Assembly: GCA_045128735.1 (NCBI GenBank)
Contig: JBGVRT010000120.1
Location: 48,883 to 112,882 of the forward strand
Reading direction: 5' to 3'
DNA length: 64,000 nucleotides
Source of the DNA: Eubacteriales bacterium
GTDB lineage: Bacteria > Bacillota > Clostridia > Oscillospirales > CAG-272
Shown here: positions 7,480-61,640 of the stretch, piece after piece
How positions within the stretch are numbered: position 1 is the first letter of the stretch
How the letters are laid out: every line of letters starts with the position of its first letter
Translations under genes and position numbers: made by a program
The notes under the pieces: model-generated
Seen by the model: the letters and a program-made list of their open reading frames with translations, nothing else
Told to the model about the DNA's origin: nothing
Database searches by the model: none

Positions 7480-10400
7480 ATGGCAAATACAGAATTCGAT
7501 TCGATAAGAATAGGTCTGGCTTCTCCGGACATGATAAGAGAGTGGTCTTACGGCGAGGTAACCAAGCCTGAGACTATTAACTACAGAACTCTCAAGGCTG
7601 AGGTAGGAGGTCTTTTCTGTGAAAAGATCTTTGGCCCCACCAAGGACGGCGCTTGTATGTGCGGTAAGTATAAGAACGCGCATAACCTTTCCCGCGACGG
7701 AAAGCCCCACAAGTGTGAAAAGTGCGGCGTTGAAATAACCACTAAGAAGGTAAGGCGTGAGAGAATGGGTCATATCGACCTTGCTACTCCCGTTGCACAC
7801 ATTTGGTATTTCAAGAGCCTTCCTAACAGAATAGCAAGTATTCTCGATATGTCTCCCAAGCAGCTTGAGCAGGTACTCTACTTCGCTGAGCACGTGGTTC
7901 TTGATCCCGGTCCCACAGACCTTGAGGTTGGACGCGTGCTTAATGAGAGAGAGTTCTTCGAGTACACCGAGAGATATGAGAACGACTTTAGAGTAGGAAT
8001 GGGTGCTGAAGCTATCAAAGAGCTTCTTTCCAAGATAGACATTCACGCTCTTGCAAAAGATCTTAAGGAGCAGCTTCAGAGCGCAAAGGCAGGACAGAAG
8101 AAGGCGAAGATCGCCAAGCGCCTTGAGATCGTTGAGGCGTTCAAGAAGCCGGGTAACAACCTTACCTGGATGATTCTTGACGCTATCCCCGTTCTTCCTC
8201 CCGATATCAGACCTATGGTTCAGCTTGACGGCGGACGCTTTGCTTCCTCCGACCTTAACGAGCTTTACCGCAGAGTTATCAGCAGAAATAACCGTCTTAA
8301 GAAGCTTATAGAGATCCGTACCCCCGAAATAGTTATCCGTAACGAGAAGCGTATGCTTCAAGAAGCGGTTGACGCACTTATTGATAACGGACGCAGAGGT
8401 AAGCCTGTAACAGGACCCTCCAACCGTCCTCTCAAGTCGCTGTCTGAAATGCTCCGCGGTAAGCAGGGACGTTTCCGTCAGAACCTTCTTGGTAAGCGTG
8501 TTGACTATTCGGGACGTTCGGTTATCGTCGTAGGTCCTACTCTTAAGATCTATCAGTGCGGTCTTCCCAAGGAGATGGCGCTTGAGCTCTTCAAGCCCTT
8601 CGTGGTAAAACGCCTTACTGAAATGCAGAAGGCTACCAACGTTAAGGACGCTCAGAAGAAGATAGACAGAGCATACCTCTATCCCGAGGTTTGGGATGCG
8701 CTTGAAAATGTTATTAAGGAGCACCCGGTACTTCTTAACCGTGCTCCTACGCTTCACAGACTTTCTATTCAGGCGTTCGAGCCTGTGCTTGTTGAGGGAC
8801 GCGCTATAAAGCTTCATCCCCTTGTATGTACAGCGTTTAACGCTGACTTTGACGGCGACCAGATGCCGGTTCACGTTCCGCTTTCGGCAGAGGCTCAGGC
8901 AGAGGCAAGATTCCTTATGCTCTCGGCTAATAACCTTCTTAAGCCCATGGACGGACGCGCAGTTACCGTTCCTACCCAGGACATGATCCTCGGTTCTTAC
9001 TACCTTACCATGGATAAGCCCGGTGAGCCCGGTGAGGGAAGAGTGTTCCGCGACTTCAATGAGGCTATGATGGCTTACGAGAATAAGCAGCTCGGACTTC
9101 ACGCGCCCATTAAGGTAAGAGTTGAAAAGGAAATCGACGGCGTAAAGCGTTCCAAGATAATCGACGCAACTCTTGGTAGACTTATATTCAACAGACCTCT
9201 TCCTCAGGACCTCGGTTTCGTTGACAGAACAGATCCCGAAAAGGCGTTTGATCTTGAAATAACCTTCGTTACCAAGAAAAAGCAGCTTGGTCAAATCATT
9301 GACAACTGTATAAAGAAGCACGGCTCTGCGGTCTGCGCAAAGATGCTTGACGATATCAAGGAAATGGGTTATAAGTATTCGACCCGCGCTTCCTTCTCTA
9401 TCTCGGTATACGATATGACTATTCCCGAGAAGAAGGAGACATATATTAAGGAAGCTGAAAAGAAGGTTGAAGAGATCCACAAGTTCTATAACCGCGGTGT
9501 CCTCGCTGAGGATGAGCGTTACAGCAACGTCGTTAAGGTTTGGGAGGATACAACAAAGCAGGTAACCGACGCGCTTAACGATAGCTTCTCGGTATTCAAC
9601 CCCATCAGAATAATGGCTGACTCGGGTGCCCGTGGTTCTATGCAGCAGATGAGACAGCTTGCCGGTATGCGTGGACTTATGTTCTCTGCAACAGGTAAGA
9701 CGGTGGAAATTCCCATCAAGTCTAACTTCCGCGAGGGTCTTAACATTACCGAGTACTTTATGGGTGCTCGTGCATCGCGTAAGTCGCTTTCGGATACGGC
9801 GCTTCGTACGGCCGACTCGGGTTACCTTACCCGCCGTCTCGTAGACGTTTCTCAGGAAGTTATCGTCCGTGAGGAGAAGTGCGATACCGTAAGGGGCGCA
9901 TGGATAACCGAAATTGCAAACGACGGCGACGGAAAGCCGCTTGAGTCACTTCAGGACAGAATTATAGGCAGATATACCATCGGTCCCGTTGTTCATCCCG
10001 AAACCGGCGAGATAATCGTTGGCGATGACGAAATGATCACCGATGAGCAGGCTAACGCAATCGTTGCCGCAGGTATTGATAAGGTTTATATCAGAACTAT
10101 CATTCAGTGTCACTCCCGCTTCGGCGTTTGTGCTCACTGCTACGGTGCTGACCTTGCTTCGGGCAAGAGAGTAAACGTAGGTGAGGCTGTCGGTATTATC
10201 GCGGCTCAGTCTATCGGTGAGCCCGGTACACAGCTTACCATGAGAACCTTCCACACGGGTGGTGTCGCAGGTTCGGATATTACTCAGGGTCTTCCCAGAG
10301 TTGAAGAGCTTTTCGAGGCAAGACAGCCTAAGAAGGCGGCTGTTATGACCGAGCATAGCGGTATTGCTCATATCCAGATCGGTGAAAATGCAAACGTTCG

Positions 10401-15830: not shown

Positions 15831-15850
15831 TATTTTGCCGAATAATGGCT

Positions 15851-15967
15851 ATCTTTGGGGATTGGTGAAATTCCATACCGGTGGTAAAGCCCACGAGCGT
15901 GACCTTTCGGTCAGGCATGAACAGGTGATATTCCTGTGCCGACGGTAAAGTCCGGATAGAAAAAGAT
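15851..15967 (+). promoter_or_regulatory. FMN riboswitch (RFN element) aptamer
   Basis: ATCTTTGGGGATTGGTGAAATTCCATACCGGTGGTAAAGCCCACGAGC...GTGCCGACGGTAAAGTCCGGATAGAAAAAGAT matches the conserved RFN core (GGTGAAATTCC, CCGGCGGTA-type, GCCGACGGT.AAGTCCGGATG) and closes with P1 ATCTTT/AAAGAT. Confidence 0.9.
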
Positions 15968-15984
15968 AAAGCAGGATTATTTTT

Positions 15985-16867: not shown

Positions 16868-16953
16868 GATCTTATCAAGAGTGGTGGAGTGACTGGCACT
16901 GTGAAACCCGGCAACCTGCATTTGCAAGGTGCTAAATCCCGAGAGATGAGACG
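16868..16953 (+). promoter_or_regulatory. SAM-I riboswitch (S-box) aptamer
   Basis: TCTTATCAAGAGTGGTGGAGTGACTGGCACTGTGAAACCCGGCAACC...GGTGCTAAATCCCGAGAGATGAGA; S-box consensus blocks with P1 TCTTATC/GATGAGA. Confidence 0.92.
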
Positions 16954-18556: not shown

Positions 18557-20776
18557 GTGAACGACGAAATGCCGATAAATAATAGCGGTCTTGAAAGCTT
18601 TTCGGGAACTGTTGAAACAGAGATATATTTTAACGAGGATAACGGATACGGAATTTTCGATTTTGCCATAGATACCAACGAGCTTGTCACCATTGTCGGC
18701 ACGCTTCCATTCGTTTGCGAGGGTGACTCACTGACTGTATACGGAAAATGGGTGAACAGCCCTAAATACGGCGCACAATTCAAGGTGGAGCAATATGAAA
18801 AAATAATGCCTGCCGATTCCACCGCAATACTTAAATATTTGTCGTCGAGAGCCATTAAGGGTATAGGTCCCAAGACCGCCCAGAGAATAGTCGAGCGTTT
18901 TGGAGACGAGACCTTTGACGTTATGGAAAATCATCCCGAATGGCTTTCGGATATAAGCGGAATTTCCTTGAAAAAGGCTCTTGAAATCTCCGAGGATTTT
19001 AAGAAAAAGGCGGGAATGAGAGCCTCGATGATGTTTTTCCGAAACTATTTCGGAACGACGATGACGGTCAAGATATACCAGAAATGGGGCGGAAAGGCAG
19101 TAGATATTGCAAAAAGCAACCCATACAGACTGTGTGAAATAGATGGAATCGGCTTTGAAAAAGCCGACGAGATAGCTCAGTCATTAGGACTTGAAAATGA
19201 CTCGGCAGACAGAATAATGGGGGGCGTGCAGTACGTTCTTAACTACAACGCGGGGCAGAACGGACATACCTGCCTTCCTTACGAAAAGCTGGTAGGCGCG
19301 GCATCGGAAATGCTTGGTGTGTCAGAGCAAAAAACACAGTCGGCTATAGAAGCGCTTATCGGGCAGGAAAAGCTTGTCTCTTCCACCTATGAGGGACAAA
19401 AATTCATTTTCGACCGCGTGATGTACGACAGCGAAAAATTTATTGCAGAAAAGCTTGTTAACATAGACAAACGCTGTGTAAATATTGACGTTTCGGACAT
19501 TCAGAGATACATTTCGCGTGAGGAGCTTGAAAACGGCATAAGATATGCCGAGCTTCAGCGCAAAGCCATAACTGAGGCAATGAGTAACGGTGTTATGGTG
19601 CTTACGGGCGGCCCGGGAACGGGAAAAACCACCGTTGTAAGAGCCTTGCTTAAAATATTTAAGGGAATGGATATGAAGGTCGCGCTTGCCGCACCTACGG
19701 GGCGCGCGGCAAAAAGGCTGTCGGAGTCTACCTCAAACGAGGCGAAAACCATACACAGAATGCTTGAGATGACCTATGACACCGACGGCTCTTCATTCCT
19801 TCGTGACGAGAAAAATTACCTTGACGAAAACGTTATTATAATCGATGAGGTGTCAATGGCTGACACGTTGCTTTTCTGCGCTTTGCTTAAAGCTGTAAAG
19901 CCGGGAGCGCGGCTTATTATAATCGGTGACGCAAATCAGCTTCCGTCGGTGGGCGCGGGCAACGTCTTGCGTGATATTATTGATTGCGGCCGCTTTGCTA
20001 CGGTTGAGCTCACCGAAATTTTCCGCCAAGCCGAAAAGAGCCTCATTATAACCAACGCTCACAAGATAAATCAAGGCGAAATGCCCGTTCTTAACGTTAC
20101 GGATAACGACTTTTTCTTCCTTCCGAGAAAAAAAGATATAGAGATTGCCAACACCGTGGTTGATCTCTGCAAAAAACGACTTCCCAAAGCGTATGGGCTG
20201 ACCGCCGCCAACGGAATACAGGTTATTACCCCCTCGAGAAGAGGCGCGGGCGGAACCGATAACCTTAACGTACTGCTTCAAAACGAACTTAACCGCGCGG
20301 AGAAACAAGGTCAGGGTTACTCGCACCGCAACCGCACGTTCCGAGTTGGCGATAAGGTAATGCAGACAAAAAACGACTATCAGCTTGAGTGGGAAAAGGA
20401 AGGCAAAAAGGGACTTGGCGTGTTCAACGGCGATATCGGCGAGGTGTTGGATATAAGCCTGCGCGACAGAACTATGACTATACGCTTTGACGATAGAATT
20501 GTAAGATACGACCTTTCGATGTTGGACGAGCTTGAGCACGCTTACGCCATAACCGTCCACAAAAGTCAGGGAAGTGAATACCCAATCGTGATAATTCCTG
20601 CATACGGCGCACCGCCTCCGCTTTTGACGAGAAATCTTTTCTATACAGCGGTAACGCGTGCGCAGAAAATGGTTATTATTGTGGGCAGAGAGGATATTGT
20701 TGACGCTATGGTGAAAAGCAACCGACAGACAATGCGCTATACCTGCCTTTGCAAGAGGCTTTCTGTAAAGAAGTGA
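18557..20776 (+). CDS. recD2: ATP-dependent RecD2-like (RecD/TraA family) DNA helicase
   Basis: Walker A GGPGTGKTT, AAPTGRAAKRL, IIDEVSM, AITVHKSQGSE. GTG 18557 is preferred as start (AGGAGG RBS 8 nt upstream); alternatives are 18548 and 18569. Confidence 0.9.
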   Translation: MNDEMPINNSGLESFSGTVETEIYFNEDNGYGIFDFAIDTNELVTIVGTLPFVCEGDSLTVYGKWVNSPKYGAQFKVEQYEKIMPADSTAILKYLSSRAIKGIGPKTAQRIVERFGDETFDVMENHPEWLSDISGISLKKALEISEDFKKKAGMRASMMFFRNYFGTTMTVKIYQKWGGKAVDIAKSNPYRLCEIDGIGFEKADEIAQSLGLENDSADRIMGGVQYVLNYNAGQNGHTCLPYEKLVGAASEMLGVSEQKTQSAIEALIGQEKLVSSTYEGQKFIFDRVMYDSEKFIAEKLVNIDKRCVNIDVSDIQRYISREELENGIRYAELQRKAITEAMSNGVMVLTGGPGTGKTTVVRALLKIFKGMDMKVALAAPTGRAAKRLSESTSNEAKTIHRMLEMTYDTDGSSFLRDEKNYLDENVIIIDEVSMADTLLFCALLKAVKPGARLIIIGDANQLPSVGAGNVLRDIIDCGRFATVELTEIFRQAEKSLIITNAHKINQGEMPVLNVTDNDFFFLPRKKDIEIANTVVDLCKKRLPKAYGLTAANGIQVITPSRRGAGGTDNLNVLLQNELNRAEKQGQGYSHRNRTFRVGDKVMQTKNDYQLEWEKEGKKGLGVFNGDIGEVLDISLRDRTMTIRFDDRIVRYDLSMLDELEHAYAITVHKSQGSEYPIVIIPAYGAPPPLLTRNLFYTAVTRAQKMVIIVGREDIVDAMVKSNRQTMRYTCLCKRLSVKK

Positions 20777-24112: not shown

Positions 24113-25411
24113 ATGACAGAACAGACAGAAAAAAAGCCCCGTGAATCGGGGCTTTCGTCAAGTAAAATGATGTTTGTGCTGTGCTTTTTGGTGTACAGCG
24201 CGGCATACGTGGCAAGAGGAAATTTTGCCTACGCACGCTCGACAATGATAGCCGAGGGTGTAATAGATACGGGGCTTGCGGGCATCCTCAGCGCGGTTTA
24301 TTTCGGCTGTTATGCCGTGGGTCAGCTTATAAACGGCGCGGCGGCAGACAGACGTCCGCCCTTTGCACTTGTTTGCGGAGGACTTTGTGCGATTGCCGTA
24401 TCAAATGCGGCAATGATGCTTGAAGTCCCCGTCGTACTCCGAATTCTGATATGGGCACTTAACGGCTTTGGGCAGTCGATGCTCTGGTGTCCGATATTCT
24501 ACATAATATCAAACGTACTACACGGCAAAATAAGATTTTTTGCTATAACCGCAATAACGCTGACCACCCCAATAGGCAAGGCATCCTGTGCTTGGCTGTC
24601 GGGCTTGGCGGTGAGGTCGCAGAAGTGGCAGAACGTATTTCTTATGTCGGCTTCGGTTATCGTTGGCGTGCTTTGCCTGTGGATAGTCGGTATGCTGACC
24701 GTAAGGAAAAATCTTGTCGTTTCGCAAAGCCTGAAAAAATCCGAATCGGAGACAACCGAAAAAAGCAACGGACTTTTTGAGATGCTTTCAAGGAGCGGAA
24801 TGCTGCTTATGCTTCCCGCAATGCTTGTTTACGGACTTTTCTTAAATGGCGTAGTCGAGCTTATTCCCACGATTCTTTCAAATGAATACGGACTCTCTCC
24901 TACAGCGGCGGCGTGGCTCGATTCGCTTGTTCCCATACTCGGCTCGCTTGGGGTTATAGCCGCAAACTTCGTTTATATCAAAATGTTTAAGCGTAACGAG
25001 ATGAAAAGCGCACTTTTTACAATGTCGGTGTCAATAGCTCCTATGCTCGTAATGCTTGCACTGGCTCTCGGAGGGGGGAACGGTACTTTGTTTGGCAGAT
25101 ATGCAGACTCGGCGGCGTTTGTCATCACTTACGGTCTTGTTTATATCCTTCAGCTTTCCTTCGGGCATTTCAGCGTCTCGCTTGCGCCCATGCACTTTTC
25201 AAGATTCGGTCTGGCGGCAACAATGTCGGGGCTTGTTAATGCAGTAGGCTACGGCGGAAGCGCGCTCGCATCCTACGTTATGAGCTACGCAGTTGAGCGA
25301 TTGCCTCTTTGGCAAACCGTGAGTATATGGATAGCCTGCCTTGTTGCGGCAAGTCTGCTCCTTGTTCTCGCATTGTTGAAGTGGAATAAATTTAAGGAGC
25401 TGTATTCTTAA
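24113..25411 (+). CDS. MFS transporter
   Basis: 432 aa and strongly hydrophobic, with roughly 12 helices by eye. Substrate unknown. Confidence 0.7.
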   Translation: MTEQTEKKPRESGLSSSKMMFVLCFLVYSAAYVARGNFAYARSTMIAEGVIDTGLAGILSAVYFGCYAVGQLINGAAADRRPPFALVCGGLCAIAVSNAAMMLEVPVVLRILIWALNGFGQSMLWCPIFYIISNVLHGKIRFFAITAITLTTPIGKASCAWLSGLAVRSQKWQNVFLMSASVIVGVLCLWIVGMLTVRKNLVVSQSLKKSESETTEKSNGLFEMLSRSGMLLMLPAMLVYGLFLNGVVELIPTILSNEYGLSPTAAAWLDSLVPILGSLGVIAANFVYIKMFKRNEMKSALFTMSVSIAPMLVMLALALGGGNGTLFGRYADSAAFVITYGLVYILQLSFGHFSVSLAPMHFSRFGLAATMSGLVNAVGYGGSALASYVMSYAVERLPLWQTVSIWIACLVAASLLLVLALLKWNKFKELYS

Positions 25412-25428
25412 CGAATCAGCTCCTTTTG
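25394..25428 (+). terminator. terminator overlapping the MFS stop codon
   Basis: AAGGAGCTG-N14-CAGCTCCTT followed by TT; the TAA stop lies in the loop. Confidence 0.65.
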
Positions 25429-25447
25429 CGTTTAACGGCAAATATTT

Positions 25448-36895: not shown

Positions 36896-37270
36896 ATGGC
36901 AAAAATATTAAAAAGTGTTAGAATCGATGAAGAAATTGTCGAGTTAGTTGATGAGTATTGCGCACTTTTGAAAAAGCATTTCAATATCCACTATGCTTTT
37001 AGCGATATAGTAAAAAAAAGTATTCCCAACTATAAGATAGGCGATGATATGGAGTTTGCTCGGTTTGTTGAATATATGATAAGTGTAGAAAAATATTCTC
37101 CTGAAGCAGTTCTCAGAACGATAAAACAAAAAGGACTTAAATTTAATACTTCTGTTTCTAAACAAACCTTGTATAGATATATTGAGCAAGGTGTATTTCC
37201 TATGATTTCAAACAACGAGCATCACATAAAAAGGAATAAGAAAGAACAAAATGGGAAAGTGGGGGAGTGA
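36896..37270 (+). pseudogene. IS30-family-transposase-like N-terminal fragment (no DDE domain)
   Basis: 124-aa ORF in an AT-rich stretch. KYSPEAVLRTIKQKGLKFNTSVSKQTLYRYIEQGVF...KRNKK resembles the W(S/T)PEQI...S.(E/R)T(I/L)YR.(I/F)..G segment of IS30 transposases. It ends well before a catalytic domain. Confidence 0.4.
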
Positions 37271-38507: not shown

Positions 38508-38743
38508 ATCATTTCACCTCCGCCGCCTTTGATATAACTGCTCACGGAGATTTTTGCCGTGTTAAAGGCGGAGCGCACTGCCTTGTGTTCCTCGCAGGAA
38601 TACTCAATGCCATAGGCGCAACCGCGTCTTGTCATCGACGGGTCAAGCTTGACGATTTTTCCCGAAAGGCCCGATTGCTCAAGCACAGCATTAGCCTTCA
38701 TTGCGACGGTCAGAGAGCCTATCGCGGCTGTACAGCTTTTCAT
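38504..38743 (-). CDS. DUF3343-like small protein (putative S/Se carrier-like)
   Basis: 79 aa, 4-nt overlap with the desulfurase gene. The sequence pattern AMKANAVLEQSGL...RGCAYGIE is recalled from the DUF3343 family. Confidence 0.55.
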   Translation of the reverse strand: MKSCTAAIGSLTVAMKANAVLEQSGLSGKIVKLDPSMTRRGCAYGIEYSCEEHKAVRSAFNTAKISVSSYIKGGGGEMI

Positions 38744-38817
38744 TTACGCACCTCCTTCAATGTCAATATATGATGAATGAGGTCGAAGGGTGATTGCGCA
38801 AAAAATATGACACCGAC

Positions 38818-38933
38818 AAATTGGTGTTTGGTGCACTGTGTTCGCACAAACCCGCCTCCTTTGCCTCCCTTGTCAAAGGGAGGGGGACCGCGGAACGCGG
38901 TGGAGGGATTCACGACAGATAAAACCAATAAAT
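38818..38933. repeat. palindromic intergenic repeat, copy 1 (variant right half)
   Basis: AAATTGGTGTTTGGTGCACTGTGTTCGCACAAACCCGCCTCCTTTGCCTCCCTTGTCAAAGGGAGG... aligns with 56374-56440; degenerate right end AAAACCAATAAAT. Confidence 0.75.
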
Positions 38934-39020
38934 ATGTGTATTGATGGGGATTTCAAATTATTGAATCCAACCCACCCGCTTCGCTAACAAGGTCGCAAGC
39001 GACCTGCACTATCGTGGTCC

Positions 39021-39075
39021 GTCCCCCCTTTGACAAAGGGGGCAAAGGAACGGGCGCACAATCAAACACCAATTT
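39021..39075. repeat. same repeat family, right-half copy
   Basis: CCCCCCTTTGACAAAGGGGGCAAAGGAACGGG...CAAACACCAATTT aligns with 56421-56475. Confidence 0.7.
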
Positions 39076-39098
39076 ATTGCACCCAAAGCTAACGACTC

Positions 39099-39196
39099 GG
39101 TGTTTAGCCGAGGAGTGGGGTGCGTGGCATTATGTTCGCACAAACAATGGTGCGCTGACCTTTTGCCCGCGGGGGCTTCCCCGCAAACACCAATTT
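39099..39196. repeat. same repeat family, degenerate full-length copy
   Basis: GGTGTTTAGCC...TGTTCGCACAAAC...GGGGCTTCCCCGCAAACACCAATTT; the right end is identical to 56447-56475 except for one base. Confidence 0.7.
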
Positions 39197-39204
39197 ATCT
39201 GCGT

Positions 39205-39234
39205 ATAAAAAAGGCTGACCTTGTCGGTCAGCCC
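39205..39234 (-). terminator. murE terminator
   Basis: On the minus strand, GGCTGACC-gaca-AGGTCAGCC followed by TTTTTT. Confidence 0.8.
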
Positions 39235-39248
39235 CATATCTTATTAAG

Positions 39249-40736
39249 TTAAACCTCTTGCTTCATCAGCTCTTCGCAGGCTTCAAGCAGAATTTGCTTT
39301 TCTGAGAAGGGGAGCTTTTCGCCGTTTACAAGCTGATAATTTTCGTGACCCTTACCCGCAAAAAGGAAAATGTCGCCCTCGCGCGCAATGCTTGCCGCGT
39401 ACCTTATTGCTTCCTTGCGGTCGGAAATTTTAATATAGTTGTCCTTTCCCGAAAATTGTGTTTCTATGTCTCTTATCACGTTTTCGGGATCCTCAAAATC
39501 GGGGTTGTCCGCTGTCAGTACCGAAAAATCCGCAAGCTCTGCCGCCGCCCGTCCAAGCTCTGCGCGGCGACCTTTTGTGCGTCCGCCTACCGAGCCGAAA
39601 AGACAAATAAGCCGCTTCGGCTCATAGCTTCGTAAGGTCTCAAGTGCCGATGTGAGACTCACCTCGTTGTGAGCGTAGTCAATTATAAACGTGGCGTAGG
39701 GAAGTGCTTGAACCGTCTCAAAGCGTCCGCTTATTTGCACGCCGGAGATAACCTCGGCAATTTTTCCTTTTGAAATACCGCATTCACGGCAGGTCGCAAT
39801 AGCGGCAAGCGCATTGTAAACGCTGAAGCTGCCGGGAAACCCGATTTCCGTCTTGTAGATACAGCCCTCGTTCAAAAAGTCAAAGGAAACCCCAAGTCTG
39901 TCGGCTTGTCTGAATTTGGCAATGCCATCAGCCTTGTAGTCGGCGCCGTTGCACAGCGCGTAGCTTATAAGTCTTGTAGAGGGGGCAACGTCCGATATCA
40001 TCGCCTTGGCATAGCCGTCGTCGGCGTTGTATATTACTGTTTTAGCTCCGTAGTCGGTGAAAAGCTTGCGCTTGCACTCCATATAATGCTCAAAGGTGGG
40101 GTGTTCCGCACCGCCAATGTGGTCCTTTGAAAGGTTTGTGTATATGCAAAGGTCAAAGCTTATTCCGCGGACTCTGTTCATATAAAGTGCCTGCGAGGAA
40201 ACCTCCATAGCGAGATATTTTACACCCGCCAGACACATCTGTCTCAGATAGCTTTGCAGACTGAGACTTTCGGGAGTGGTGTTAACCGTTTCGTAGTGAA
40301 ATCCTCCGAAATCAATGCCGTTCGAACCGATGTAGCCGCACTTCAGTCCGCAGGCGTTAAGTACGTTGTAGATCATAAGAGCCGTGGTGGTCTTGCCCTT
40401 GGTGCCCGTAAGCCCGATTATAAAAAGCTCGTCGGCAGGGTGACCGAAGAACTCGGCTGCAAGGTCTGCCAATGCCGTTCGGGTGTTGTCAACAGTGAAT
40501 ATTACGGCGTCGTCGGGAAGGTCAACGGCGTGCTCGGCAACAAAATGCCTGCAACCGCGGCTGTAAGCCGAATAGGCGTAGTCGTGTCCGTCGGATGCCG
40601 CCCCCTTTATGCAAACGAACAAAGCCCCCTCGCGGGTGCGCCTTGAGTCGTGGCATATTTCATCGATTTCAAAATTTTTGTCATATTCAGCCGCAGAGGT
40701 GTACTCTACAGCCGATAAAAGTTTTTCAAGCTTCAT
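39249..40736 (-). CDS. murE: UDP-N-acetylmuramoyl-L-alanyl-D-glutamate--diamino-acid ligase MurE
   Basis: 495 aa, P-loop GLTGTKGKTTT, Mur ligase middle and C-terminal blocks; the DNPR-position motif reads DNPD. Confidence 0.92.
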   Translation of the reverse strand: MKLEKLLSAVEYTSAAEYDKNFEIDEICHDSRRTREGALFVCIKGAASDGHDYAYSAYSRGCRHFVAEHAVDLPDDAVIFTVDNTRTALADLAAEFFGHPADELFIIGLTGTKGKTTTALMIYNVLNACGLKCGYIGSNGIDFGGFHYETVNTTPESLSLQSYLRQMCLAGVKYLAMEVSSQALYMNRVRGISFDLCIYTNLSKDHIGGAEHPTFEHYMECKRKLFTDYGAKTVIYNADDGYAKAMISDVAPSTRLISYALCNGADYKADGIAKFRQADRLGVSFDFLNEGCIYKTEIGFPGSFSVYNALAAIATCRECGISKGKIAEVISGVQISGRFETVQALPYATFIIDYAHNEVSLTSALETLRSYEPKRLICLFGSVGGRTKGRRAELGRAAAELADFSVLTADNPDFEDPENVIRDIETQFSGKDNYIKISDRKEAIRYAASIAREGDIFLFAGKGHENYQLVNGEKLPFSEKQILLEACEELMKQEV

Positions 40737-45134: not shown

Positions 45135-45210
45135 GGCACGGCGTAAGGGATTCGAACCCCCGACCTTTTGGTTCGTAGCCAAACACTCTATCCAGCTGAG
45201 CTAACGCCGC
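45134..45210 (-). tRNA. tRNA-Arg (anticodon ACG)
   Basis: Minus strand reads GCGGCGTTAGCTCAGCTGGATAGAGTGTTTGGCTACGAACCAAAAGGTCGGGGGTTCGAATCCCTTACGCCGTGCCA. It folds as a 77-nt cloverleaf (7/4/5/5-bp stems, G1-U72 wobble), with anticodon loop CTACGAA, T-loop TTCGAAT and an encoded CCA. Confidence 0.9.
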
Positions 45211-48821: not shown

Positions 48822-48860
48822 AAAGGGGCTGTGCTCTTAACGAGCCTGCCCCTTGTTCTA
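48822..48860 (+). terminator. terminator after the dehydrogenase gene
   Basis: AAAGGGGC...GCCCCTT stem with an inner GCTC/GAGC pairing, then a T-rich tail. Confidence 0.6.
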
Positions 48861-51844: not shown

Positions 51845-51854
51845 AACATTAAAA

Positions 51855-51888
51855 AAGGAGCTGACTCGCTAAGAATTCAGCTCCTTTT
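51855..51888 (+). terminator. terminator after the isomerase gene
   Basis: AAGGAGCTGA-N12-TCAGCTCCTT followed by TT. Confidence 0.7.
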
Positions 51889-51950
51889 GCACTCCCGTGA
51901 TTTGTGAGAACGTGGTGCATCAAATCCCAATTTACCTTTGCTCAAAGGGT
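51889..51950. repeat. degenerate end-fragment of the palindromic repeat family
   Basis: ...GAGAACGTGGTGCATCAAATCCCAATTT compared with the consensus ...AGAACGGGGGCTTCCTCGCAAACACCAATTT, followed by the small palindrome CCTTTGCTCAAAGG. Confidence 0.4.
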
Positions 51951-56373: not shown

Positions 56374-56475
56374 AAATTGGTGTTTAGCGCACTGTGTTCG
56401 CACAAACCGCCTCCTTTGCCCCCCTTTGACAAGGGGGGGGCAAAAGAACGGGGGCTTCCTCGCAAACACCAATTT
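56374..56475. repeat. intact 102-bp palindromic intergenic repeat (MITE/REP-like)
   Basis: 12-bp perfect terminal inverted repeats AAATTGGTGTTT (56374-56385) and AAACACCAATTT (56464-56475). Central G/C hairpin TTTGCCCCCCTT-tgac-AAGGGGGGGGCAAA. Confidence 0.8.
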
Positions 56476-61368: not shown

Positions 61369-61394
61369 ACTCATATAGATATTAAACCGATGAT

Positions 61395-61640
61395 TAAGAA
61401 TAGTAGTTTACGCCTTGTGTTCACAGAGAGCCGTCGGGGGTGGAAGTACGGCAACGCGAACGTAGATGAATGGGCTTATGAGGGCGGTCGAAAGCGGTAA
61501 CGCAAGTAGCAACCGACGGGAGCTGACCCGTTATAAACAGAAGTACATGAAGTGTACAATGAGTGGACGCTATGCGTCAATTTGGGTGGTACCGCAGGAT
61601 TTAACGTCTTGTCCCTTAAATTTTAGGGACAAGACTTTTT
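61395..61640 (+). promoter_or_regulatory. T-box riboswitch leader, Trp specifier (UGG)
   Basis: Stem I AGAGAG...GGTGGAAG. Specifier loop GAA-TGG-G (TGG at 61471-61473). AGTA box (AAGTAGCAAC) and F-box CCGTTA. T-box sequence AATTTGGGTGGTACCGCAG (61579-61597). Terminator GTCTTGTCCCT-N9-AGGGACAAGAC followed by TTTTT (61606-61640). Confidence 0.9.

What the first reader, a model, noticed from the sequence alone, without database searches (positions are those of the whole stretch)
38818..39196. Cluster of three degenerate copies of a palindromic repeat fills the DUF3343-murE intergenic region
The 505-bp spacer contains three pieces. The first is a full-length variant (38818-38933). The second is a right half (39021-39075, ending in perfect AAACACCAATTT). 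The third is another near-full copy (39099-39196) with the same right terminus. All are related to the intact element at 56374-56475. The pile-up suggests repeated insertion into, or next to, earlier copies (nested MITE/REP behaviour). It also explains three spurious ORFs with PPFDKGGKG-like translations. The elements sit where the desulfurase operon promoter must lie, so they may shape its expression.
Basis: seen in the sequence. Interest (0 to 1): 0.55.

Follow-up and report, generated by a model that had tools for sequence, protein, structure and literature searches.

The report
Nested hairpin repeat elements, gut Clostridia
The spacer between murE and the DUF3343/cysteine-desulfurase genes holds two members of an apparently undescribed family of small, non-coding, self-folding repeat elements that litter the genomes of some uncultured gut Oscillospiraceae; this is an ordinary kind of selfish DNA (REP/MITE-like), but the family is new and oddly built.

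Summary
The repeats are real, but the spacer holds two elements, not three. Window 38818-39075 is one 258-bp element with perfect 13-nt inverted termini. It folds as a single long hairpin (z about -9). Its two outer parts, joined, equal the 102-bp element at 56374-56475. Window 39076-39196 is a second unit, a 23-nt junction plus "copy C". The same junction recurs in three other contigs with different flanks, so the pair was not piled up locally by independent hits.

Related species have only 80-109 nt between murE and DUF3343 and no element. The cluster is therefore an insertion, placed just after the murE terminator and upstream of a conserved 49-nt leader.

The termini (CGRYA)AAATTGGTGTTTG define a family found in Faecousia and other Oscillospiraceae MAGs: 162 termini in 195 kb. 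Its interiors are swappable palindromic modules, some of them GTAG-REP-like. Hairpin stems show compensatory changes. No target-site duplication was found in 63 copies, no Rfam match, and no transposase.

Best reading: a non-autonomous, REPIN/BIME-like mobile hairpin family. The mobilising enzyme is unknown; a RAYT/HUH-type enzyme is inferred only. Any effect on the desulfurase promoter is undetermined.

The parts
38818..39075 (.). Long-form element 'AB' (258 bp). It is one continuous imperfect palindrome: an intact-type frame with a roughly 156-nt interior.
   Evidence: Perfect 13-nt terminal inverted repeat (I3). Folds as a single hairpin, z -8.7 as DNA and -9.8 as RNA. Matches itself on the reverse strand over positions 1-257. 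38818-38880 joined to 39037-39075 aligns end to end with the 102-nt element, 89 of 105 columns.
38818..38830 (+). Left terminus AAATTGGTGTTTG of AB, preceded by the conserved flank CCGACA.
   Evidence: Terminus logo from 162 ends.
39063..39075 (-). Right terminus CAAACACCAATTT of AB.
38839..38851 (+). Subterminal box TGTTCGCACAAAC. It is also present at 39133-39145 and 56395-56407.
   Evidence: The same box follows the terminus in the JAEIGA01 metagenome copies.
38864..38883 (.). Left copy of the G+C-rich mini-hairpin P (CCTCCCTT gtca AAGGGAGG). It is the source of the PPLSKGG / PPFDKGG pseudo-ORFs.
   Evidence: I13, D3.
38884..38911 (.). Module GGGACC-GCGGAACGC-GGTGGAGGGATTC. GGTGGAGGGATTC pairs with GAATCCAACCCACC at 38963-38976.
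   Evidence: Identical in L065 and related in L009 (L009). A similar module is present in Vescimonas fastidiosa.
38912..38962 (.). A+T-rich, non-palindromic core at the tip of the long hairpin.
   Evidence: Unpaired or weakly paired in the folds. The core is unrelated in L065 although the arms are nearly identical.
39024..39042 (.). Right copy of mini-hairpin P (CCCCCTTTG a CAAAGGGGG).
   Evidence: I9; D3, 82% identical to the left copy; I1, 27-nt arms 89% complementary.
39076..39098 (+). 23-nt junction ATTGCACCCAAAGCTAACGACTC between AB and C.
   Evidence: Conserved together with both neighbours in L064, L065 and L066, whose outer flanks are unrelated.
39099..39196 (.). Element 'C'. It has the intact-type frame: GGTGTTTAGC, the box at 39133-39145, and CGGGGGCTTCCCCGCAAACACCAATTT. 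The centre is different, and the left terminus lacks AAATT.
   Evidence: 100% identical in strain contig L043, where the left terminus is complete. About 90% identical in L064-L066.
39201..39235 (-). Intrinsic terminator of murE (stem GGGGCTGACC / GGTCAGCCTT plus a T-run). The cluster starts about 5 nt after the scanned tail (TTTTATACGC).
   Evidence: A terminator occupies the equivalent position in the element-free relatives.
38744..38792 (-). Conserved 49-nt leader immediately upstream of the DUF3343 start codon. The insertion leaves it intact.
   Evidence: Aligned with L068, L069, L071, L074 and L076. Identical in all strain contigs L036-L045.
56374..56475 (.). Short-form ('intact') element of 102 bp: 12-nt perfect termini, box, and a single P hairpin at 56413-56446. 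It lies 47 nt after the SDR gene stop, just past that gene's terminator.
   Evidence: RNA -50.8 kcal/mol, z -5.5. All five contigs that carry the SDR gene end within 54-133 nt after its stop; L046 and L049 stop inside the element and L047 diverges inside it.

Best explanation
The spacer holds two non-coding, non-autonomous mobile elements of one family, inserted in this lineage between the murE terminator and the conserved DUF3343 leader.

Anatomy (shown). A family member is a long imperfect palindrome. It has:
- a conserved outer frame: termini (CGRYA)AAATTGGTGTTTG, and in the window type a subterminal TGTTCGCACAAAC box;
- an exchangeable interior made of smaller palindromic modules.

Forms (the anatomy is shown; the direction of change is inferred). 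The long form is frame + module P + a non-palindromic core + P again + frame. Window 38818-39075 is a long form. Because P is its own reverse complement, its two copies are also direct repeats. Deletion between them would give the short form seen at 56374-56475.

The second unit (shown). Window 39076-39196 always travels with the right terminus of a neighbouring element, so the 379-bp pair behaves as a composite.

Spread (inferred). I think the elements spread as folded single-stranded hairpins. A trans-acting, single-copy enzyme that reads the terminal sequence and structure would move them (REP/REPIN-RAYT or IS200/IS605-like HUH chemistry). That fits the lack of target-site duplications and the compensatory changes that keep the stems paired. 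The enzyme itself was not found.

Local effect (inferred). The 258-nt hairpin lies downstream of the murE terminator. It probably acts at most as an extra roadblock or insulator between murE read-through and the desulfurase operon. It does not look like a promoter.
For: Non-random repeats:
- Searches show the repeats are far above chance.
- Searches show that 38818-39075 is a single hairpin element.

Family outside the window:
- The genome scan returned 35 loci, about 28 of them true. They come from a Faecousia MAG (JBJEYY01), three Clostridia/Clostridiales MAGs (CAMFFO01, CALYTB01, SFHI01) and an Oscillospiraceae MAG (JAQXMD01).
- Those loci hold 162 termini with at most one mismatch and 62 paired elements in 195 kb. 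By my arithmetic about 3 termini are expected by chance.
- Short (85-113 bp) and long (158-290 bp) forms share termini but differ in interior.

Window-type copies elsewhere: L047, L052-L061, L064-L066.

Insertion and turnover:
- Three related lineages have element-free murE-DUF3343 spacers of 109, 80 and 96 nt.
- The same-species contig L043 carries only one element, with a 279-bp difference bounded by the 7-nt repeat AAACACC.
- Gene ends shared between different MAG species carry family elements with different interiors.

Structure is maintained: 3 of 19 stem pairs of the commonest module show double compensatory changes.

No target-site duplication at any symmetric boundary offset from 0 to 45 and length 2-10, in 63 elements.

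Location: elements lie by gene 3' ends. Gene pairs flanking them are 13 convergent, 13 tandem and 5 divergent, and 14% of elements abut a terminator against 2.6% of random placements.

Interiors include GTAG + G+C hairpin doublets, the REP/REPIN signature. The same modules form REP-like arrays in cultured Vescimonas fastidiosa.

Contigs of the source species break at the elements: 9 of 10 at the DUF3343 side, and both murE contigs inside C. All 5 SDR-gene contigs end 54-133 nt after the stop; two stop inside the 56374 element and one diverges inside it.

No Rfam family matches the window or 142 kb of element-rich loci.
Against: - No transposase or RAYT gene was found in the window or among ORFs flanked by elements in the MAG loci. 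The enzyme and the single-strand mechanism are inferred only.
- A sharply conserved 13-17-nt terminal inverted repeat is more typical of DDE-transposase MITEs than of classical REPs. The frame itself has no GTAG.
- Only three element loci occur in this 64-kb window, and the copy number in the source genome was not measured.
- The empty sites come from species only about 85% identical in the neighbouring protein. Exact insertion boundaries could therefore not be read. An imperfect direct repeat, TTTTTT..CGCA.AT, flanks the cluster and could be a degraded duplication.
- L043 is a scaffold with an N-run.
- The absence of duplications could reflect old copies or misplaced boundaries.
- Contig breaks can also be caused by palindromes as such.
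Confidence: 0.58

Rival explanations
1. Classical MITEs. These would be deletion derivatives or TIR-capture products moved by a DDE transposase that binds the 13-17-nt terminal inverted repeats, like Correia, RUP or Nezha elements. The interiors would be irrelevant filler.
For: The termini are by far the most conserved part, at 1.8-2.0 bits per position, while interiors are unrelated between subfamilies. Size is 85-290 bp, copy number is high and location is intergenic. Another MITE in the same genomes does behave classically: a 21-nt TIR with a 9-bp duplication.
Against: No target-site duplication in 63 copies at any symmetric boundary. No terminus pair encloses a transposase gene in about 195 kb of MAG loci; the single 1.2-kb pair, L013:5272-6459, encloses a fragment of an ordinary gene. 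Conservation decays gradually outside the terminus instead of stopping at a sharp end.
Confidence: 0.22
2. Cassette exchange at a fixed frame. The conserved termini would be an att-like recognition frame. Palindromic cassettes would be integrated, excised or swapped there by a site-specific or HUH recombinase, rather than whole elements transposing.
For: The C unit is bracketed by a perfect 15-nt direct repeat, CAAACACCAATTTAT (D5). The same junction recurs with different left partners. Gene ends shared between species carry the same frame with different interiors. L047 shows a different interior behind the same terminus at the 56374 site.
Against: Orthology in the MAG comparisons is one-sided. 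L047 is a low-coverage contig end and may be chimeric. Homologous recombination or gene conversion among many dispersed copies explains the same facts. No recombinase was identified. The integron attC core sites (RYYYAAC / GTTRRRY) are not present, by inspection of the termini.
Confidence: 0.09
3. Host-selected structural elements that are not mobile: extra terminators, insulators, mRNA 3' stabilisers or protein-binding sites, kept by selection at gene ends.
For: Stems are maintained by compensatory change. Elements sit next to terminators and gene 3' ends. Both window loci start within about 5 nt of a terminator tail. REP sequences are known to stabilise mRNA and bind gyrase (references cited in PMC5581495).
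Against: Related species lack the cluster entirely and keep the same gene order. There is a strain-level difference. The same composite occurs in unrelated flanks. Interiors are highly variable. Secondary co-option of some copies is not excluded.
Confidence: 0.08
4. A structured non-coding RNA gene or riboswitch-like leader of the desulfurase operon.
For: The predicted folds are very stable, and the element lies upstream of an operon.
Against: Both strands fold equally well, as expected of a DNA palindrome. There is no Rfam hit, even at E up to 10 apart from spurious miRNA models. The element is absent from relatives that keep the leader. Copies occur downstream of unrelated genes.
Confidence: 0.03

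Closest known systems
REP / REPIN elements and BIMEs (mosaics of REPs), dispersed by RAYT (REP-associated tyrosine transposases)
   Same: Extragenic, highly repeated, hairpin-forming doublets that sit after genes and terminators. No target duplication. Mosaic combinations of several motifs. Some interiors are literally GTAG + G+C palindrome doublets. RAYT group 1 is reported in Clostridia (PMC5581495).
   Different: The outer frame is a sharply conserved 13-17-nt terminal inverted repeat without GTAG. The elements are longer, up to 290 bp, and are nested in several layers. No RAYT gene was seen, so association with one, the defining feature, is untested.
Bacterial MITEs such as the Neisseria Correia element (CREE), pneumococcal RUP and cyanobacterial Nezha
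   Same: 100-300 bp, non-coding, with terminal inverted repeats and long and short forms that differ by an internal deletion. They are located between genes and can fold into long hairpins in RNA.
   Different: No target-site duplication was detected; Correia and RUP duplicate TA (my own knowledge). No sequence similarity to these elements is known to me, but I ran no sequence comparison against them. No parent insertion sequence was found.
ERIC/IRU and other enterobacterial intergenic imperfect palindromes
   Same: Imperfect palindromes of about 127 bp, with variants carrying internal insertions or deletions. They lie in transcribed intergenic regions, and no transposase is known for them.
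   Different: Different phylum and sequence. ERIC copies are few and largely vertically inherited (my own knowledge). This family reaches about one per 3-6 kb in some MAGs.
Integron attC sites (for example Vibrio VCRs)
   Same: Imperfect palindromes with conserved ends and a variable centre of variable length. They are recognised as folded single strands and located at gene 3' ends.
   Different: The attC core sites are absent. The elements follow housekeeping genes (murE, an SDR gene), not cassette arrays, and no intI lies nearby.

Membership tests
MITE (sensu stricto) | Terminal inverted repeats | tested here: met
   13-nt perfect pairs at 38818/39075 and 12-nt pairs at 56374/56475. The logo from 162 ends gives CGRYA+AATTGGTGTTTG.
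MITE (sensu stricto) | Fixed-length target-site duplication flanking each copy | tested here: not met
   63 paired elements, boundary offsets 0-45, lengths 2-10: observed matches are close to the shuffled control everywhere. Only an imperfect T-run/CGCA repeat flanks the window cluster.
MITE (sensu stricto) | Small, non-coding, multi-copy | tested here: met
   85-290 bp, with only spurious ORFs. 62 paired copies in 195 kb of MAG loci.
MITE (sensu stricto) | An autonomous insertion sequence with the same termini | tested here: inconclusive
   None in the window or in about 195 kb of MAG loci.
REP / REPIN | Short extragenic palindromes arranged as inverted doublets that form one hairpin | tested here: met
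   AB is one 258-nt hairpin with two P units. MAG long forms are two inverted palindromic modules around a core.
REP / REPIN | Over-represented in extragenic space of the genome | tested here: inconclusive
   Met in the Faecousia and CAMFFO01 MAG loci. The loci were chosen for having a copy, and gene calls were crude. In the source window there are only 3 loci in 64 kb.
REP / REPIN | Association with a single-copy RAYT gene flanked by the repeats (PMC5581495) | not testable with these tools
   No complete carrier genome was available. ORFs flanked by elements look like housekeeping genes.
REP / REPIN | Conserved 5' GTAG next to the palindrome (many RAYT-linked REPs; my own knowledge) | tested here: inconclusive
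   Absent from the frame and from the window's P module. Present in the beta and gamma interior modules of MAG copies and in the Vescimonas arrays.
BIME-like mosaic | Recurrent combinations of several distinct repeated motifs in alternating orientation | tested here: met
   The frame combines with alpha, beta, gamma, delta and epsilon modules. Extra outer motifs are present in some copies and absent in others.
Integron attC | Core sites RYYYAAC ... GTTRRRY at the two ends, in a cassette array with intI | tested here: not met
   The termini read AAATTGGTGTTTG / CAAACACCAATTT. The neighbours are murE, DUF3343/desulfurase and an SDR gene.
Any Rfam RNA family | Covariance-model match at the gathering score | tested here: not met
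   In the window only T-box, FMN, SAM and tRNA match, all elsewhere. Nothing credible at E up to 10 in 38700-39300. In 142 kb of element-rich loci only a tRNA and 6S RNA match.

The most novel reading that the evidence does not exclude
The conserved 13-17-nt termini may not be transposon ends. They may be a fixed recognition frame at gene ends into which different palindromic cassettes, including GTAG-REPIN doublets, are integrated, swapped and stacked by a dedicated hairpin-reading recombinase. That would be an attC-like cassette system for non-coding hairpins in Oscillospiraceae. Three observations fit it and are not excluded: the 15-nt direct repeat that brackets the C unit, the identical junction with different partners at four loci, and the same frame with different interiors at shared gene ends.
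Probability: 0.09. Interest if true: 0.75.

Novelty: new member of a known kind. Interest (0 to 1): 0.4.

Why it matters
- It adds a family of REP/MITE-like elements for a large, mostly uncultured group of gut Clostridia. In the sampled MAG loci many intergenic spacers hold a copy.
- The onion-like build is unusual: the most conserved layer is outside and the most variable inside. Together with the lack of target duplications, this makes the family a useful test case for how hairpin repeats spread and diversify, and for whether RAYT-type enzymes work in Firmicutes.
- Practically, the elements explain why short-read contigs of these organisms break at gene ends. In the source species, 9 of 10 contigs at the DUF3343 side break at the element and both murE contigs end inside C. 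All 5 SDR-gene contigs end within 54-133 nt of the stop; two stop inside the 56374 element and one diverges inside it.
- They also explain why gene callers emit PPFDKGGKG-type pseudo-proteins.
- For this locus, the finding removes three spurious ORFs. It also shows that the desulfurase leader is intact downstream of the insertion.

Tried and rejected
- Known RNA family: Rfam at gathering score on the whole window, at E up to 10 on the spacer, and at gathering score on 20 element-rich loci gave nothing relevant.
- Viral origin: the terminus-pair pattern has no match in the viral contigs. Phage and plasmid BLAST found only short module matches, in two unannotated 'Bacteriophage sp.' contigs and in Vescimonas.
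- Literature: the terminus sequence occurs only as unrelated PCR primers. No paper on MITEs or REPINs in Oscillospiraceae turned up.
- Transposase hunt: Pfam on the neighbouring ORFs gave no transposase; the 124-aa ORF at 36896-37270 has only sub-threshold CTD5 and HTH_17 hits. The one 1.2-kb terminus pair, in L013, encloses a fragment of an ordinary gene. ORFs flanked by elements on both sides look like housekeeping genes.
- Target-site duplication: none found.
- Promoter in the elements: the P loop contains TTGACA but has no -10 partner. The only scan hit is a weak 9/12 match inside the right arm.
- Clean empty site for the 56374 element: the closest SDR homologues (94% identical) have a different downstream gene, so the comparison is uninformative.
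- Peptide search with element-derived pseudo-ORFs (four peptides joined by X runs, a device of mine) returned only 3 proteins. It does not measure copy number, but it did yield L064-L066.

Full report

Yes for the sequences, only partly for the parsing.
- The 12-mer AAACACCAATTT occurs five times in the window, at 38818-, 39064+, 39185+, 56374- and 56464+. The expectation is 0.57, and no shuffle of 100 reached five.
- A second shared block, TGTTCGCACAAAC, occurs exactly three times, once in each element locus.
- nhmmer with the 102-nt element at 56374-56475 finds 38818-38886 (E 1.6e-11), 39022-39075 (E 7e-5) and 39125-39196 (E 2.8e-4). It finds nothing else in the 64 kb.
A Mur ligase ends at 39249. 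A Se_S_carrier (formerly DUF3343) gene starts at 38743 and is followed by a class-V aminotransferase. The spacer is 505 bp.
- The PPFDKGGKG-type ORFs are translations of the G+C-rich hairpins.

**2. Re-parsing the spacer: two elements, not three**

The rest, including the proposed degenerate right end, scores like shuffled sequence. It contains no terminus-like 13-mer even at three mismatches.
- Instead, 38818-38830 and 39063-39075 form a perfect 13-nt inverted pair.
- The whole 258 nt matches its own reverse strand. It folds into one nearly continuous hairpin: as DNA -70 kcal/mol against -37 for shuffles (z -8.7); as RNA -129 kcal/mol (z -9.8).
- Joining 38818-38880 to 39037-39075 gives a 102-nt sequence that aligns end to end with the 102-nt element, 89 of 105 columns.
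- So 'copy 1' and 'copy 2' are the two arms of one long-form element, which I call AB. AB is the 56374-type element with a roughly 156-nt interior.
- The interior lies between two copies of a small palindrome P (38864-38883 and 39024-39042, 82% alike as direct repeats). Because P is its own reverse complement, its two copies are direct as well as inverted repeats. Deletion between them would turn the long form into the short form. That direction is my inference.
- Copy C (39099-39196) is real. It shares the frame of the 102-nt element but has a different centre, and its left end reads cgacTCGGTGTTTAG.

**3. The family**

A scan of one genome per species with the terminus pair gave 35 loci. About 28 are true and 7 look like chance hits in unrelated phyla.
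- The true loci come from a Faecousia MAG (JBJEYY01), three Clostridia/Clostridiales MAGs (CAMFFO01, CALYTB01, SFHI01) and an Oscillospiraceae MAG (JAQXMD01).
- In those 195 kb the 11-nt core with at most one mismatch occurs 162 times. By my arithmetic about 3 are expected by chance.
- There are 62 paired elements, many of them at contig ends.
- The conserved part is (C-G-R-Y-A)AAATTGGTGTTTG. Conservation decays gradually further out.
- Elements come as short (85-113 bp) and long (158-290 bp) forms with the same termini. Their interiors are quite different palindromic modules:
  - the commonest is CTGTCATTGCGAGACCAGTG..CACTGGTCTCGCAATGACAG;
  - others are GTAG + G+C hairpin doublets, which is the REP/REPIN signature;
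  - L009:5311-5564 resembles the window's AB in sharing the module GGGGGACCGCG.AGCGGTGGA.
- The commonest module keeps its stem through double compensatory changes at 3 of 19 pairs.
- No Rfam family matches the window's elements or 142 kb of element-rich loci.
- A text search for the terminus sequence and for MITE/REPIN work on this group found no prior description.

**4. Window-type copies elsewhere**

- A metagenome scan for terminus + box found nine contigs of one assembly (JAEIGA01). They share the roughly 45-nt terminal module, which is followed by strings of other hairpins. Nearly all of these contigs break inside the element.
- Searching the protein collection with element-derived pseudo-peptides led to three ENA contigs, L064-L066.
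- All three contain the same arrangement as window 39063-39196. A right terminus is followed by a 23-25-nt junction (23 nt in the window) and then the C body, about 90% identical. The outer flanks are unrelated.
- In L065 the left partner is an AB-type element. Its arms are almost identical to the window's, but its core is unrelated. In L064 and L066 the left partner is a different element.
- The AB-C pair is therefore not a local pile-up of independent insertions. The junction has been copied, or is made by a site-specific process.

**5. Evidence of insertion and turnover**

- Related species, whose DUF3343 protein is 84-87% identical, keep the murE-DUF3343-desulfurase order. Their spacers are only 109, 80 and 96 nt and hold no family terminus.
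- In those species the murE terminator is followed almost directly by a leader. That leader is conserved in the window as 38744-38792.
- The window's cluster therefore sits between the terminator tail and this leader, with 10 and 25 extra nucleotides at its two sides.
- A contig of the same species (L043) carries only one element. It is the C body with a complete left terminus, fused to the DUF3343-side flank. It differs from the window by 279 bp, bounded by the 7-nt repeat AAACACC. I read this as a deletion by microhomology, but the direction is not proven, and L043 is a gapped scaffold.
- Short-read contigs of the source species stop at the elements: 9 of 10 at the DUF3343 side, and both murE contigs inside C. 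All 5 SDR-gene contigs end within 54-133 nt of the stop; L046 and L049 stop inside the 56374 element and L047 diverges inside it.
- Gene ends shared between MAGs of different species carry family elements with different interiors, although orthology is shown on one flank only.

**6. How it probably works**

- I found no target-site duplication in 63 elements, at any symmetric boundary from 0 to 45 nt outside the core and any length from 2 to 10.
- By contrast, a different MITE in the same MAG, with the TIR CAGGYTATCGGSTTARAACAGC, sits inside a family terminus with a clear 9-bp duplication at two loci. Duplications are therefore detectable in these data when they exist.
- Several features fit REPIN/BIME-type elements moved as folded single strands by a trans-acting HUH/Y1 enzyme better than DDE-type MITEs. 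These are the lack of duplication, hairpins maintained by compensatory change, REP-like interiors, mosaic composition, and position just after terminators and at gene 3' ends.
- RAYT group 1 is reported from Clostridia (PMC5581495).
- The enzyme was not found, and whole genomes could not be searched. This step is inference. The sharply conserved terminal inverted repeat keeps the MITE reading alive.
- Cultured Vescimonas fastidiosa has the interior modules in REP-like arrays but not the AAATTGGTGTTT frame. The frame is thus a lineage-specific outer layer around modules shared by the bacterial family Oscillospiraceae.

**7. Effect on the neighbouring operon**

- The conserved leader is intact and identical in all strain contigs.
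- No credible sigma-70 promoter was found in the leader or in the elements. The TTGACA in the P loops has no -10 partner.
- On the transcribed strand the cluster follows the murE terminator. At most I expect an added roadblock or an RNase III target for read-through transcripts. This is untested.

**8. Verdict**

This is a real feature and an ordinary kind of thing: selfish or semi-domesticated extragenic palindromes. It belongs to an apparently undescribed family with an unusual nested, frame-plus-cassette build.

Noticed in passing
L009:1726-1950 and L014:266-490: A second, different MITE with the 21-nt TIR CAGGYTATCGGSTTARAACAGC, carrying a GTAG-REPIN doublet. It is inserted into the right terminus of a family element, in opposite orientations at the two loci, with 9-bp duplications AACACCAAT and ACACCAATT. 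The family terminus therefore looks like a preferred target. Fragments of this TIR (ATGCTTATCGGGTTAACTCAGCAG) lie just outside about 25 of the 162 family ends.
   Followed up: partly
L001, L007, L008, L009, L012, L014, L015, L017, L018, L022, L024, L028, L029 (long forms listed): The long alpha-type elements share a conserved, non-palindromic core of about 100 nt (...GGAACCAGGTAACGATTACCACCAAAAATCGCAACGTTTCCCC...ATACATTTTCCCTCTAACCGGGGG). It occurs in both orientations and across different MAG species. It has no Rfam match, and its function is unknown.
   Followed up: no
L067 (Vescimonas fastidiosa pMM35_01) 9200-9960 and 19900-20320: The spacers after aspS and between gyrA and gyrB (560-870 bp) are filled with alternating GTAG + G+C hairpins (classical REP/BIME-like arrays), alpha modules (36 BLAST places in the 860-kb record) and a CCTCCCTTGCCTAAAGGGAGG module. 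The record is labelled a plasmid but carries dnaA, dnaN, gyrA/B and several aminoacyl-tRNA synthetase genes, so it is effectively a chromosome or chromid.
   Followed up: partly
L015:7000-7090, L032:5100-5330, L024:3090-3140, L013 and L018 flanks: Further small repeated motifs flank the elements in the MAGs. One is tandem AATTGACAATT / TTGACAGTT units. Another is a hairpin GG(T/A)ATCCCTTCGGGAT(G). They are present at a site in one species and absent at the orthologous site in another.
   Followed up: no
L052-L061 (JAEIGA01 metagenome contigs): Longer relatives share only the roughly 45-nt terminal module (ATAAATTGGTGTTTGTCGG.G.G.CCGCTATGTTCGCACAAACCCCG). A string of at least four different hairpins follows it. 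L055 has three degenerate tandem repeats of the box region about 170 nt apart. No complete copy was recovered.
   Followed up: no
L013:5272-6459: Two family termini 1.2 kb apart enclose half elements and a roughly 0.8-kb fragment of an ordinary-looking ORF (248 aa, no family assignment made). This is either a composite that captured gene DNA or a misassembly at the repeats.
   Followed up: partly
window 38793-38817 and 39197-39206: The cluster is flanked by an imperfect direct repeat that includes a second T-run: TTTTTTATACGCAGAT on the murE side and TTTTTTGCGCAAT on the DUF3343 side. It could be a degraded long target duplication that includes the terminator tail, or it could be chance.
   Followed up: partly
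window 36896-37270 (+): An orphan 124-aa ORF lies between the desulfurase and a GntR regulator. It has only sub-threshold Pfam hits (CTD5 of ABC-3C systems, HTH_17). Strain contig L041 has a 142-aa version, and relatives such as L068 lack it at this position.
   Followed up: no
window 25394-25429, 48823-48858, 51853-51890: Three similar terminator-like hairpins, AAGGAGCTG...CAGCTCCTTTT (75-91% alike), at different gene ends. This may be another small repeat or simply convergent terminators.
   Followed up: no
window 15847-15971, 16869-16952, 61381-61619, 45137-45210: An FMN riboswitch, a SAM riboswitch, a T-box leader and a tRNA gene, all at Rfam gathering score.
   Followed up: no
L043:1120-1160: The only contig that spans the spacer in the source species has an N-run and a short duplicated stretch just before the DUF3343 start codon. 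This is a scaffolding artefact and lowers confidence in that contig.
   Followed up: no
L029:6085-6286: A 6S RNA gene (Rfam, 51 bits) lies between two family elements in the CAMFFO01 MAG.
   Followed up: no
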